Assembly (NCBI GenBank): GCA_000146045.2
Contig: BK006936.2
Coordinates: 749,185-813,184 of the forward strand
DNA from: TPA_inf: Saccharomyces
Lineage: Eukaryota
DNA: 64,000 nucleotides
Direction of reading: 5' to 3'
This document shows positions 35,890 to 39,246 of this stretch, one piece after another. Under the pieces are notes generated by a model. It was not told the origin of the DNA and did not search any database. It saw nothing but the letters and a program-made list of their open reading frames with translations. The first letter of the stretch is position 1. Each line of letters begins with the position of its first letter. The position numbers and the translations under genes were made by a program.

Positions 35890-37821
35890 TAAAAAGTCAA
35901 GATGTAAGTTACCTCTTAGTAAGAAGAGTTATTGCAGCAAGCTTAGTATCAATAGGGAGACTCTGTCATGTAAAAAAATAAATGAACACAATCATAACCT
36001 CTTCGACTGGGCTATTCGTTGTATAGTATATGTGGTGGAGTGTAATGAATGAAGTTCTCAGAAGCTTGAAAGCATATCAAAATCACGTATTGACTATGAC
36101 AGATTCTTGTTTCTTGCTCCATTACTCCATTCGAGTTTTTCACAACTTTTGTCGTTCGTCTATAACATCTCTTTTTTTTCCCACTCTTCTAAAATATTGG
36201 CATAGCTGACATGTTTGGAACCGAATAAGCAATTACAATACGACAGTAAAATAAAAGCATGTTATTGCTGCTTGTAGAGAATTCCTGCATATGTAACTTT
36301 CTCATTCCGACGGGATAAGTTCATAAACTAATCAGCGATGAGTTGCGGAAAATTCGTCAATAGAATATTTTCCAGTCAGTGGTGGTCCCAGTGGCCTGCA
36401 ACCTAATGGCTATAGTTCTGGATAATAAATTGGGCAAAGGTCAGTATAAAGAATGAATGTATCAGGCCGTAATTGAAGCTTTCAAGTCCAGGTGAAAGGC
36501 CAAATCGACAATTAGCGAAAACAGGATTTTTTTACCAACTTGAAATAGTGACTGCTGTCTTTTTGCCTGATTAAGTGGTTATATATTTCAACTAATATCA
36601 CAACAAAAGGCCTCTCAAAATTTGTGGCGAAGTGTACATCCTGGGTGCTCAGGTAAGCGTCGTCTTCGTATTTTTTTTTTTTCAACAGTAGTTTGGAAAT
36701 AATGCTCTTCGAGGAATGCGAGCGGAAATGTTATCCACTGTATAAGTCGATATTTTAAGGGACGCTAAATATATCATCATAGCTCGTCTATTGGTGGCTT
36801 CTCCAATTGCACTTTCAATGCATTATGGTAAAGTGTGGTGATAAGGCATAGTGATGTTTACAGAGGTCTGTTGGTTTCTCTGGGCTCGCTCATCATCCGA
36901 CCAGTAACCTTGTGGGGTTTCACATATTGTTCTATGCATTATTATCACGGATTTGTGCCTGCAAATGCTGTTTCTTTGGCTTTTCTTTCTAAAAAAATTA
37001 TGATATATATATTGTTCCTCCTTGTTTAACAGGCTTTACGGTATTGTGGATCCTAGTAATAGGCGTACTTTTCTTCATTTACATATTTGAACAATATATG
37101 TCTCACAAGTAGTTGACCGAATAGCGTTACGTAAGGGTCAAAAACCTTTTCAGAATTGTATATATGACATTTTTAGAACATGATATAATAAACAGAATAT
37201 AAAAGAAAATAGAGACGACGTACCATGGCATGAAGAATTGTACTGATATCACATTGTGTTGAGCACTGATAGATTAATACTATATTTCTGCTAGGTGCGG
37301 GGGGTAACATGTCCTAATGTGTGGCAACCACATTCTAAGGCTCGGTAAGTGATGCGATATATGTGCATGTGTGGCTTTCTTCCTAATTTGCTATTAGATG
37401 ATTGTGTGCAAATCCACAGAAATATACAATTTCGAGAATATATATACTAGTTATCGTTATAAGAACACACAGTATTGGCCAATTCTTGCCTCTGAATGGT
37501 ACAAAATGCTTTAAAATGTAGTAAATGAAACATTAATTCCAAATCAGATTTTTTTTCGCAATGCTTAAATCTAGTAAACACAAAGTACTACCGAAAAGCA
37601 AGGATGGAAACTATGGCAGTATTGAAGAGACTGAAATTCCTTCTGTCGACTACAGTGAAGACTTAGATGAGGACTTGGACAAAGGCGAAGATATAGCGCT
37701 TTCAAGAATCCCAAATTGATGGATTATTGAAGCTACTCTTTTTTCTAATGTCTTTTTGTCCGGTTTTGACGGAACCGTTACAGCTTCGACGTACCAAACG
37801 ATTGGTAACGAATTTAATCAG

Positions 37822-39246
37822 ATGAGTATTTCAAATTGGATCACCACTGCGTATTTAATTACATCAACATCTTTTCAACCTCTTTATGGGTCATTTTCTG
37901 ATGCACTTGGTCGAAGAAACTGCCTTTTCTTTGCTAATGGGGCTTTTACCATTGGATGTCTAGCCTGTGGTTTCTCGAAAAACATCTACATGCTTAGTTT
38001 TATGAGAGCATTGACAGGCATAGGAGGTGGTGGCTTGATCACACTTTCTACAATCGTAAATTCAGACGTTATTCCAAGTTCGAAAAGAGGAATTTTTCAA
38101 GCGTTTCAGAATTTACTTTTGGGATTTGGTGCCATATGTGGAGCGTCTTTCGGTGGCACAATAGCGTCGAGCATTGGTTGGAGGTGGTGTTTTCTCATCC
38201 AAGTACCCATATCTGTGATTAGTTCCATATTAATGAATTATTATGTACCTAATCAGAAAGAATATAATCGTCAAAATTCTAGCATATTCCAAAATCCCGG
38301 AAAAATACTCAGGGACATAGATGTTATGGGCTCAATTCTTATTATAACTGGTCTCACACTACAGCTTCTTTACCTGAGCCTGGGGTGTTCTACTTCTAAA
38401 TTATCATGGACCAGCCCTTCTGTGCTACTGCTATTAGTTGGGAGTGTAATAATCCTCTTACTGTTCATATTGCACGAAAGGAAAACAAGTGCTAGAGCGA
38501 TTATTCCTATGGAGCTGGTCAATTCCTCCTACAGTGTCGTTGTACTTTCGATAAGTATACTTGTTGGTTTTGCCAGCTACGCGTATCTTTTTACTTTACC
38601 ATTATTCTTTCAGATTGTACTTGGAGATTCCACTGCAAAAGCAGGATTACGTCTTACGATTCCTTCCCTATTTACTCCGGTAGGCAGTCTCATAACAGGA
38701 TTTTCCATGAGCAAGTACAACTGTCTAAGATTATTACTCTACATTGGTATTTCTTTGATGTTTTTGGGTAACTTTTTATTCCTGTTTATTGAAAAAACTT
38801 CTCCGAACTGGTTGATTGGTCTATTTTTGATACCTGCAAATCTAGGACAAGGTATCACTTTTCCTACGACCTTGTTTACTTTCATATTTATGTTCTCTAA
38901 GAGTGACCAAGCTACTGCGACATCAACTTTATATTTATTCCGTAGTATTGGATCTGTATGGGGTGTTGCAATTTCAGCTGGCGTCATTCAATTATCTTTC
39001 GCAGGTTTATTGCGTAGTAATTTGAAAGGTCTACTGGATGAAAACAAGATAAAGAAACTTATTGTTCAGCTTAGTGCAAACTCCTCATATATTGGATCTT
39101 TACATGGCGAAGTTAAAAACACAGTCATAAAGAGTTTTGATGAGGCAACAAAGAGGGCTCATCTAATGTCTACATTACTCTCTTCATTGGCCCTGATACT
39201 CTGCATCCTTAAAGACAATCTGGCGAAACCTAAAACAAGAAGATAA
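37822..39246 (+). CDS. VBA2: Vacuolar basic amino acid transporter (MFS, DHA2-like), annotated form 474 aa. An in-frame upstream ATG ORF (37561-37719) and TM1-like segment (37720-37821) are separated from it only by a TGA.
   Basis: Track ORF begins at a TTG (37756). The first ATG (37822, MSISNW) gives 474 aa = YBR293W. It carries the MFS motif-A-like GSFSDALGRRN. See findings for the N-terminal anomaly. Confidence 0.8.
   Translation: MSISNWITTAYLITSTSFQPLYGSFSDALGRRNCLFFANGAFTIGCLACGFSKNIYMLSFMRALTGIGGGGLITLSTIVNSDVIPSSKRGIFQAFQNLLLGFGAICGASFGGTIASSIGWRWCFLIQVPISVISSILMNYYVPNQKEYNRQNSSIFQNPGKILRDIDVMGSILIITGLTLQLLYLSLGCSTSKLSWTSPSVLLLLVGSVIILLLFILHERKTSARAIIPMELVNSSYSVVVLSISILVGFASYAYLFTLPLFFQIVLGDSTAKAGLRLTIPSLFTPVGSLITGFSMSKYNCLRLLLYIGISLMFLGNFLFLFIEKTSPNWLIGLFLIPANLGQGITFPTTLFTFIFMFSKSDQATATSTLYLFRSIGSVWGVAISAGVIQLSFAGLLRSNLKGLLDENKIKKLIVQLSANSSYIGSLHGEVKNTVIKSFDEATKRAHLMSTLLSSLALILCILKDNLAKPKTRR

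What the first reader, a model, noticed from the sequence alone, without database searches (positions are those of the whole stretch)
37561..37824. VBA2 N-terminus: an ATG-initiated 52-codon ORF and a transmembrane-helix segment lie in frame upstream of the annotated start, separated only by one TGA
An ORF starting at ATG 37561 reads MLKSSKHKVLPKSKDGNYGSIEETEIPSVDYSEDLDEDLDKGEDIALSRIPN. It ends at TGA 37717-37719 in exactly the same reading frame as VBA2. Directly after the TGA the frame stays open (WIIEATLFSNVFLSGFDGTVTASTYQTIGNEFNQ) up to the first ATG of the 474-aa annotated VBA2 at 37822. The intervening 34 codons are a hydrophobic helix with a D-G-T-V motif resembling the conserved TM1 of DHA2-type MFS/VBA transporters. 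The annotated protein instead begins around TM2 and motif A (GSFSDALGRRN). This suggests the ancestral VBA2 was about 561 aa with a hydrophilic N-terminal tail plus TM1. In this strain it is either truncated by a nonsense (TGG to TGA?) mutation or it depends on stop-codon readthrough or reinitiation. An MFS transporter missing TM1 would be unusual.
Basis: partly seen in the sequence, partly recalled or inferred. Interest (0 to 1): 0.6.

Follow-up and report, generated by a model that had tools for sequence, protein, structure and literature searches.

The report
Premature stop truncating yeast VBA2
In this reference-type yeast strain a single T-to-G change turned leucine codon 53 of the vacuolar amino-acid transporter gene VBA2 into a stop, so the annotated 474-residue protein lacks its first membrane helix; this is real but was already reported in 2016.

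Summary
ATG 37561 opens 52 codons, TGA lies at 37717-37719, and 34 further open codons lead in frame to the annotated ATG at 37822. The 474-aa product is identical to S288C Vba2p.

The ancestral gene encodes 561 aa. Other S. cerevisiae strains carry TTA (Leu) at codon 53, S. paradoxus and S. eubayanus CTA, and S. kudriavzevii CTG.

Codons 46-87 show dN = 0 among three Saccharomyces species. They hold eight family-invariant residues. An AlphaFold model places TM1 at residues 53-84 and TM2 from residue 88, so the annotated protein starts at TM2 and has 13 of 14 helices.

The stop is a common segregating polymorphism, not a programmed recoding site. UGA-U is the tightest UGA context in yeast, there is no CAR-NBA motif, and five out-of-frame ATGs lie before the annotated start.

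Bianchi et al. 2016 (PMC4993999, Supplementary Note S1) already described this. They replaced the stop with Leu ('Vba2ext'). The short form aggregated and the extended form reached the vacuolar membrane.

Verdict: a real, ordinary and already known loss-of-function or hypomorphic allele. The truncated annotation has been copied to other genomes.

The parts
37439..37446 (+). TATA-like element (TATATATA), 122 nt upstream of ATG 37561 and 383 nt upstream of the annotated ATG
   Evidence: Pattern scan. Its position fits ATG 37561 as the native start. This is an inference from typical yeast TATA-to-TSS spacing and was not tested.
37561..37716 (+). Codons 1-52 of ancestral VBA2: the hydrophilic, acidic N-terminal tail. 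In this strain it stands alone as a 52-codon ORF.
   Evidence: It is collinear with the N-termini of the S. paradoxus, S. kudriavzevii and S. eubayanus orthologs. Residues 1-42 are disordered in the model, pLDDT < 50. dN/dS for codons 1-45 is 0.13-0.46.
37717..37719 (+). Premature stop TGA, derived from TTA (Leu53) by T->G at 37718. It segregates as a polymorphism in S. cerevisiae.
   Evidence: Alignments. Codon census: TGA in 18 loci, TTA in 12 S. cerevisiae loci, CTA in S. paradoxus and S. eubayanus, CTG in S. kudriavzevii.
37720..37821 (+). Codons 54-87: transmembrane helix 1 of the 14-helix transporter, including the F-D-G-T-V motif (Asp70 codon at 37768-37770). This stretch is not part of any ATG-initiated in-frame ORF in this strain.
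   Evidence: AlphaFold helix 53-84. It aligns with TM1 of EmrB, EfpA and QacA, where LDSTI/MDSTV match FDGTV. N63, V64, L66, D70, T72, A75, Y78 and I81 are invariant in 35 homologs. dN = 0 with dS 0.6-1.6 among S. cerevisiae, S. paradoxus and S. kudriavzevii.
37822..39246 (+). Annotated VBA2 (YBR293W) ORF: 474 codons plus TAA, corresponding to TM2-TM14 of the ancestral protein.
   Evidence: Exact match to NP_009852.3. Pfam MFS_1 is matched from profile position 34. Model helix 88-116 (TM2) begins at Met88.
37561..39246 (+). Full ancestral VBA2 reading frame, 561 codons, interrupted only by the TGA at codon 53.
   Evidence: 99% identical over its full length to the 561-aa S. cerevisiae proteins (P0001). 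Pfam MFS_1 profile positions 1-346 are matched.

Best explanation
VBA2 in this strain (S288C type) carries a derived nonsense polymorphism, Leu53->stop (TTA->TGA, T->G at 37718). It cuts the ancestral 561-aa, 14-helix DHA2-type MFS transporter just before TM1.

Ribosomes starting at the native ATG 37561 make only a 52-residue soluble peptide and terminate. This step is inferred. The reference annotation then took the next in-frame ATG, Met88 at 37822, which sits exactly at the start of TM2. The '474-aa Vba2p' is therefore a TM1-less fragment.

It lacks the conserved TM1 motif with Asp70, and it is poorly reachable by scanning ribosomes. The allele is best read as a loss-of-function or strong hypomorph: a young pseudogene-like variant segregating in the species. 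It is not a recoding site and not a regulatory uORF.

Shown here: the ancestral state, the polymorphism, selection on the lost segment, and the structural role of that segment.

Shown by others: the short form aggregates, and the repaired form reaches the vacuolar membrane.

Inferred: how little protein the chromosomal TGA allele makes.
For: (1): the only difference near the site between TGA strains and a 561-aa strain (L005) is TGA versus TTA.

(2): S. paradoxus (CTA), S. eubayanus (CTA) and S. kudriavzevii IFO1802 and ZP591 (CTG) have an uninterrupted frame from an orthologous ATG.

(3): codons 46-87 have dN = 0 at dS 0.6-1.6. Codons 88-561 have dN/dS of about 0.06.

(4): the lost segment supplies MFS_1 profile positions 1-33 and eight family-invariant residues.

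(5): the model (pLDDT 82.9, pTM 0.82) has 14 TM helices, with TM1 at 53-84 and TM2 from 88. The top structural neighbours are all 14-TM DHA2 pumps: EmrB, QacA, EfpA and NorC.

(6): both alleles occur in S. cerevisiae. The same downstream protein haplotype (P0122) occurs with TGA and with TTA, and the S288C downstream haplotype also exists with Leu53 (P0152). The mutation is therefore young.

(7): five out-of-frame ATGs (37604, 37613, 37667, 37719, 37748) lie between the native and annotated starts. The annotated ATG has C at -3.

(8) (PMC4446449): UGA-N readthrough ranks C>A>G>U. This site is UGA-U, and the following UGG-AUU does not fit the CAR-NBA motif.

(9) (PMC4993999, Supplementary Note S1): short Vba2-YPet formed aggregates. 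Vba2ext (stop->Leu) localised exclusively to the vacuolar membrane. 86 S. cerevisiae genomes coded for Vba2ext.

(10): a second, independent nonsense allele (S472*, TCA->TAA) occurs in two other assemblies. This is consistent with weak constraint on VBA2 in this species.

(11): in the Sigma1278b background, the vba1 vba2 vba3 triple deletion had no effect on arginine or lysine pools.
Against: - Deletion of VBA2 was reported to lower basic amino-acid uptake by vacuolar vesicles (Shimazu et al. 2005, as summarised; that paper is not held and I do not know the strain).
[quoted passage not shown] This would imply some residual function of the TGA allele.
- A reporter with the VBA2 promoter, 5' leader and first 30 nt of the annotated ORF fused to GFP gave detectable protein in yeast transformants; the VBA2 segment was amplified from BY4741 DNA. 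Some ribosomes therefore start at or read through to ATG 37822.
- The amount of protein made from the chromosomal allele, and any NMD effect, were not measured here.
- The downstream ORF shows no decay, but the mutation is too young for that to be informative.
Confidence: 0.88

Rival explanations
1. Leaky expression. The TGA allele is not null. Low-level UGA readthrough inserts Trp, Cys or Arg at position 53, or initiation just after the stop yields a small amount of TM1-containing, functional 14-helix transporter. That would be enough to explain the published vba2-deletion phenotypes in S288C-derived strains.
For: UGA is the leakiest of the three stops and is decoded mainly by Trp-tRNA (82%), then Cys and Arg (PMC4150775). 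The VBA2 leader-GFP reporter is expressed. 'Minor additional activity from Vba2' was reported in BY4742. Position 53 lies at the cytosolic start of TM1 and is not among the family-invariant columns.
Against: UGA-U is the most efficient UGA terminator, with readthrough several-fold below UGA-C. No CAR-NBA motif follows. The stop is a recent SNP, so nothing has been selected to promote readthrough. No product was observed here.
Confidence: 0.15
2. The 474-aa protein starting at Met88 is the real functional product in this strain: a 13-helix or re-folded transporter. The 52-codon ORF would then act as an upstream regulatory ORF.
For: It is the reference annotation. The reporter fused after codon 10 of the annotated ORF is expressed. 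Deletion phenotypes are reported in the literature.
Against: It lacks TM1, including invariant Asp70 and seven other invariant residues. An odd helix count would invert the topology. Six ATGs must be bypassed to reach the start. The upstream ORF is not a separate ORF in any sister species. The short form fused to YPet aggregates without membrane localisation.
Confidence: 0.05
3. Sequencing or assembly error in the reference. The stop is not real.
For: Single-base differences near ORF starts have historically been corrected in S288C.
Against: TGA is seen in 17 distinct independent loci, including long-read assemblies, metagenome contigs and the S. pastorianus S. cerevisiae subgenome. The 52-aa ORF is on 599 contigs. 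Bianchi et al. also read it in S288C/BY4742.
Confidence: 0.01

Closest known systems
'Vba2ext' of Bianchi et al. 2016 (Sci Rep 6:31443, PMC4993999, Supplementary Note S1 and Fig. S2)
   Same: This is the same locus and the same observation. A single TGA separates a 261-bp upstream extension from annotated VBA2. The extended product is a 14-TM protein and many S. cerevisiae genomes encode it. Replacing the stop with Leu gives a vacuolar-membrane protein, whereas the short form aggregates.
   Different: That note gives no cross-species polarisation and no selection analysis for VBA2, and it does not state the ancestral VBA2 codon. This work adds those, together with the readthrough and scanning context, a structural model, the copied mis-annotations and a second nonsense allele.
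VBA3 (YCL069W) versus VBA5 in S288C
   Same: It is a paralogous DHA2 transporter whose N-terminal region is cut off in S288C by the same type of change, TTA (Leu)->TGA. The annotation likewise starts at a downstream ATG (PMC3890622; PMC4993999 supplement).
   Different: It is a different, subtelomeric gene outside this window. The extension is 372 bp and removes more helices. The repaired Vba3ext goes to the cell periphery rather than the vacuole.
Bacterial 14-TMS DHA2 efflux pumps with solved structures (EmrB 8zal, QacA 7y58, EfpA 8ufe, NorC 7d5p)
   Same: They share the fold and helix count with the 561-aa form: Foldseek E 1e-16 to 1e-10 and target-normalised TM-score about 0.8. The TM1 D-x-T motif aligns.
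   Different: Sequence identity is only 15-20%. They are drug exporters at the plasma membrane, not vacuolar amino-acid importers. None is known as a TM1-less natural variant.
Programmed stop-codon readthrough genes of yeast (CAR-NBA or UGA-C contexts)
   Same: Both have an in-frame stop with a conserved coding sequence on either side.
   Different: Here the stop is absent from orthologs and from many conspecific strains. The context is UGA-U with no CAR-NBA motif. The conservation downstream reflects recent ancestry, not recoding.

Membership tests
[quoted passage not shown] | Full-length match to the MFS_1 profile | tested here: met
   The 561-aa conceptual protein matches PF07690 positions 1-346 of 347 (E 3e-46). 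The annotated 474-aa form matches only from position 34.
[quoted passage not shown] | Fourteen transmembrane helices | tested here: met
   The AlphaFold model of the Leu53 allele has 14 long helices, with TM1 at 53-84 and TM14 at 516-551. The annotated 474-aa product retains 13, so the feature is not met for the annotated form.
[quoted passage not shown] | Conserved acidic D-x-T motif in TM1 (motif D1 of the 14-TMS drug antiporters; the motif definition is recalled from Paulsen et al. 1996, not checked here) | tested here: met
   FDGTV at residues 69-73 aligns with LDSTI of EmrB and MDSTV of EfpA. D70 and T72 are invariant in 35 homologs. The motif lies in the segment cut off by the stop.
[quoted passage not shown] | Motif A (G-x-L-a-D-r-x-G-r-k/r) in the TM2-TM3 loop | tested here: met
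   GSFSDALGRRN at residues 110-120, read directly. It lies between model helices 88-116 and 118-137. G110, S113, D114, G117, R118 and R119 are invariant.
[quoted passage not shown] | Structural similarity to solved DHA2 transporters | tested here: met
   The top hits are EmrB, QacA, EfpA, MHAS2168 and NorC, all with probability 1.00.
Programmed stop-codon readthrough site | Stop codon conserved in orthologs | tested here: not met
   There is a Leu codon in three sister species and in 12 S. cerevisiae loci.
Programmed stop-codon readthrough site | Leaky termination context (UGA-C and/or CAR-NBA after the stop) | tested here: not met
   The sequence is UGA-UGG-AUU. UGA-U is the tightest UGA context according to PMC4446449.
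Programmed stop-codon readthrough site | Detectable readthrough product | not testable with these tools
   This needs proteomics or a dual-tag experiment.
Regulatory upstream ORF | The uORF exists as a separate ORF in related species or strains | tested here: not met
   In S. paradoxus, S. kudriavzevii, S. eubayanus and Leu53 S. cerevisiae strains the same codons form the N-terminus of the main ORF.
Strain-polymorphic nonsense allele (young pseudogene or hypomorph, as in VBA3) | Sense codon in outgroups, with both alleles segregating within the species | tested here: met
Strain-polymorphic nonsense allele (young pseudogene or hypomorph, as in VBA3) | The truncated product is non-functional | not testable with these tools
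   Reported by others: short Vba2-YPet aggregates and the repaired form localises correctly (PMC4993999 supplement). Transport by the isogenic allele pair has not been measured.

The most novel reading that the evidence does not exclude
The S288C-type TGA allele is a conditional hypomorph rather than a null. Rare UGA decoding, mostly as Trp53, gives a trickle of full-length 14-helix Vba2. This would account for the vba2-deletion phenotypes reported in laboratory strains. Its level would rise whenever termination fidelity drops, for example in [PSI+] cells, with aminoglycosides, or with eRF or eIF3 variants. Vacuolar basic amino-acid import would then depend on termination efficiency.
Probability: 0.12. 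Interest if true: 0.35.

Novelty: already known. Interest (0 to 1): 0.15.

Why it matters
The main value is a caution for users of the reference genome.

- 'Vba2p' of S288C, BY and related strains, as annotated and as cloned from the annotated ATG, is a TM1-less fragment. Functional statements about Vba2 based on that ORF, or on deletions in TGA-carrying backgrounds, may understate what the intact 561-aa transporter does in wild strains.
- The truncated model has been copied by annotation transfer into genomes that actually encode the full-length protein. These include two S. kudriavzevii reference assemblies and at least nine YJM S. cerevisiae assemblies.
- No new biology is implied. The case was published in a supplementary note in 2016 and is a standard example of a segregating nonsense variant in a dispensable transporter gene.

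Tried and rejected
- I looked for a parallel N-terminal lesion in S. kudriavzevii, because three S. kudriavzevii-type proteins are annotated at 474 aa. The IFO1802 and ZP591 DNA has an open frame from the upstream ATG, so the 474-aa length is an annotation artefact. Only the VIN7 contig has a 1-bp shorter T-run, which may be a homopolymer read error.
- I considered the S288C-specific L542S change as a sign of decay after the stop. I rejected this because the S288C downstream haplotype also exists with Leu53 (P0152).
- I read the 418-aa gene call in L016 as a possible extra lesion. The DNA shows no disruption in the part held, so it is a gene-caller choice.
- A simple Kyte-Doolittle scan did not flag TM1. 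MFS TM1 helices are amphipathic, so the structural model and the alignments were used instead.
- Allele frequency could not be estimated without bias.
- Shimazu et al. 2005 is not in the held library, so its strain background could not be checked.
- The DHA2 family paper (PMC3890622) and its supplements mention the VBA3 stop but nothing on VBA2. A broader literature search on S288C nonsense variants gave nothing specific.
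Full report
**Observation**

- ATG 37561 opens 52 codons (MLKSS...SRIPN).
- TGA occupies 37717-37719.
- The same frame then stays open for 34 codons (WIIEATLFSNVFLSGFDGTVTASTYQTIGNEFNQ).
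- ATG 37822 opens the 474-codon ORF that ends at TAA 39244-39246.

The 474-aa product is identical to S288C Vba2p, NP_009852.3, so the window is reference-type S. cerevisiae chromosome II. SUL1 lies downstream, seen as a PF00916 neighbour in the related loci. With the local non-coding base composition, 86 open codons around a single stop have a chance probability of about 0.001. No competing long ORF lies on the other strand.

**What the upstream codons are**

Pfam MFS_1 is matched from profile position 1 only if the upstream segment is included. The annotated protein starts at profile position 34.

A database search with the conceptual 561-aa protein returned S. cerevisiae proteins of exactly 561 aa, 99% identical over the full length, with Leu at position 53 (P0001 and cluster members). 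It also returned full-length orthologs of 549-586 aa across Saccharomycetaceae and beyond, including S. pombe Vba2.

In a 35-sequence alignment, N63, V64, L66, D70, T72, A75, Y78 and I81 are invariant. All eight are encoded between the TGA and the annotated ATG. The FDGTV stretch aligns with LDSTI of EmrB and MDSTV of EfpA in TM1 of solved 14-helix DHA2 pumps.

An AlphaFold model of the Leu53 allele has mean pLDDT 82.9 and pTM 0.82.
- Residues 1-42 are disordered.
- The first helix spans 53-84 and the second begins at 88.
- There are 14 transmembrane helices in all.

The stop therefore sits at the first residue of TM1, and the annotated Met88 sits at the first residue of TM2. The closest solved folds are all 14-helix DHA2 transporters: EmrB, QacA, EfpA, MHAS2168 and NorC.

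**Direction and nature of the mutation**

DNA alignments show AAT TGA TGG in the window and in other TGA strains, and AAT TTA TGG in a 561-aa strain. S. paradoxus and S. eubayanus have CTA, and S. kudriavzevii has CTG. The ancestral residue is Leu, and the lesion is a single T->G transversion at 37718.

Selection on the region is clear.
- Among S. cerevisiae, S. paradoxus and S. kudriavzevii, codons 46-87 have dN = 0 at dS 0.6-1.6.
- Codons 88-561 have dN/dS of about 0.06.
- The tail, codons 1-45, evolves faster (0.13-0.46) but keeps its frame.

**Population status**

Among the loci fetched, 18 carry TGA and 12 S. cerevisiae loci carry TTA. L031 and L014 are the same contig, so there are 17 distinct TGA loci. 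The TGA set includes metagenome contigs and the S. cerevisiae subgenome of S. pastorianus.

The 52-aa ORF is recorded on 599 contigs. That number is inflated by laboratory strains.

One downstream protein haplotype (P0122) occurs with both alleles. The S288C downstream haplotype also exists with Leu53 (P0152). The mutation is therefore young, and the intact downstream ORF says nothing about function.

A second, independent nonsense allele, S472* (TCA->TAA), occurs in two other assemblies that keep Leu53. This suggests weak constraint on VBA2 in this species.

**How the allele is expected to behave**

Scanning ribosomes that start at ATG 37561 terminate after 52 codons. Reaching ATG 37822 by leaky scanning would require bypassing that ATG and five out-of-frame ATGs (37604, 37613, 37667, 37719, 37748). 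The annotated ATG also has C at -3.

Readthrough is disfavoured. In yeast, UGA-N readthrough ranks C>A>G>U. This site is UGA-U, followed by UGG-AUU, which does not fit the CAR-NBA readthrough motif (PMC4446449). Any readthrough would insert mainly Trp, then Cys or Arg (PMC4150775).

A TM1-less, 13-helix MFS protein would lack the conserved Asp70 motif and would have inverted topology.

Some translation does reach the annotated start region. A reporter with the VBA2 promoter, leader and first 30 nt fused to GFP is detectable in yeast transformants; the VBA2 segment was amplified from BY4741 DNA (PMC8762332). I therefore treat the allele as a strong hypomorph or null, not a proven null.

**Comparison with what is known**

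The DHA2 family study of Dias and Sa-Correia noted the stop that truncates VBA3 but not the one in VBA2 (PMC3890622).

Bianchi et al. 2016 describe this case explicitly (PMC4993999, Supplementary Note S1 and Fig. S2).
[quoted passage not shown] - 86 S. cerevisiae genomes encoded Vba2ext in September 2015.
- The short forms fused to YPet gave intracellular aggregates.
- Vba2ext-YPet, with the stop replaced by Leu, localised exclusively to the vacuolar membrane.
- VBA3 carries the same kind of change, TTA->TGA.

In the Sigma1278b background, the vba1 vba2 vba3 triple deletion has no effect on arginine or lysine pools (PMC7440668 and PMC13160679). I could not determine the VBA2 allele of that strain.

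**Verdict**

The feature is a derived, segregating nonsense polymorphism that removes TM1 from a 14-helix vacuolar transporter. It is neither a recoding signal nor a regulatory uORF.

It is already in the literature, so novelty is nil and interest is low. The points added here are:
- polarisation of the mutation with three outgroup species;
- a selection analysis of the lost segment;
- a structural model placing the stop at the first residue of TM1;
- the unfavourable termination and scanning context;
- evidence that the truncated gene model has been copied into genomes that encode the full-length protein.

Noticed in passing
L007 and L009 (S. kudriavzevii IFO1802 and ZP591), upstream ATG at about 1243, annotated start 1501; L018, L019, L021, L022, L025, L027-L030 (YJM S. 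cerevisiae assemblies), upstream ATG 340, annotated start 601: All of these are annotated with a 474-aa Vba2, yet they carry a Leu codon at position 53 and an open frame from the upstream ATG. The truncated S288C gene model appears to have been copied by annotation transfer into genomes that encode the full-length protein of about 560 aa.
   Followed up: yes
L034 and L035, codon 472 of the 561-codon frame (locus positions 2014-2016): This is a second, independent nonsense allele of VBA2: S472* (TCA->TAA). It occurs in two ScRAP assemblies (CHS_3a / BHH type) that keep Leu53, and it removes roughly the last 90 residues.
   Followed up: partly
L006 (S. cerevisiae x S. kudriavzevii VIN7 contig), around 1409-1425: The T-run inside TM1 has five T where IFO1802 and ZP591 have six, which shifts the frame. 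This may be a homopolymer sequencing error rather than a real frameshift.
   Followed up: partly
L027-L030 (YJM450 / YJM320 type alleles), whole VBA2 CDS: The allele is chimeric. The first ~300 nt are 99% identical to S288C. From about nt 450 onward the allele is closer to S. paradoxus (93-98%) than to S288C (85-94%), with a transition between nt 300 and 450. This suggests an introgressed segment with a breakpoint inside VBA2.
   Followed up: partly
window 37748-37825: An out-of-frame 25-codon ORF starts at ATG 37748 and ends at a TGA that overlaps the annotated VBA2 start (ATGA, 37822-37825). This is probably incidental, since the stretch is ancestral coding sequence.
   Followed up: no
L016 (GCA_011022315.1, S. 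pastorianus), 601-759: The lager-yeast S. cerevisiae subgenome carries the TGA allele. The 52-codon ORF is annotated there as a separate hypothetical protein (QID78278.1).
   Followed up: no
Proteins P0002 (ANL), P0003 (BBT), P0009, P0015 (CIH), P0025: These S. cerevisiae VBA2 gene models have internal gaps or short out-of-frame stretches, for example GLFFDTCKSRDK in P0002. They look like predicted introns skipping frameshifts or stops. The cause could be further disrupted alleles or long-read homopolymer errors.
   Followed up: no
Outside the window (VBA3, chromosome III), from PMC4993999 supplement and PMC3890622: The paralog VBA3 is truncated in S288C by the same kind of mutation, TTA (Leu)->TGA, upstream of its annotated start. 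Two related transporter genes in one strain therefore carry the same kind of N-terminal nonsense lesion.
   Followed up: no
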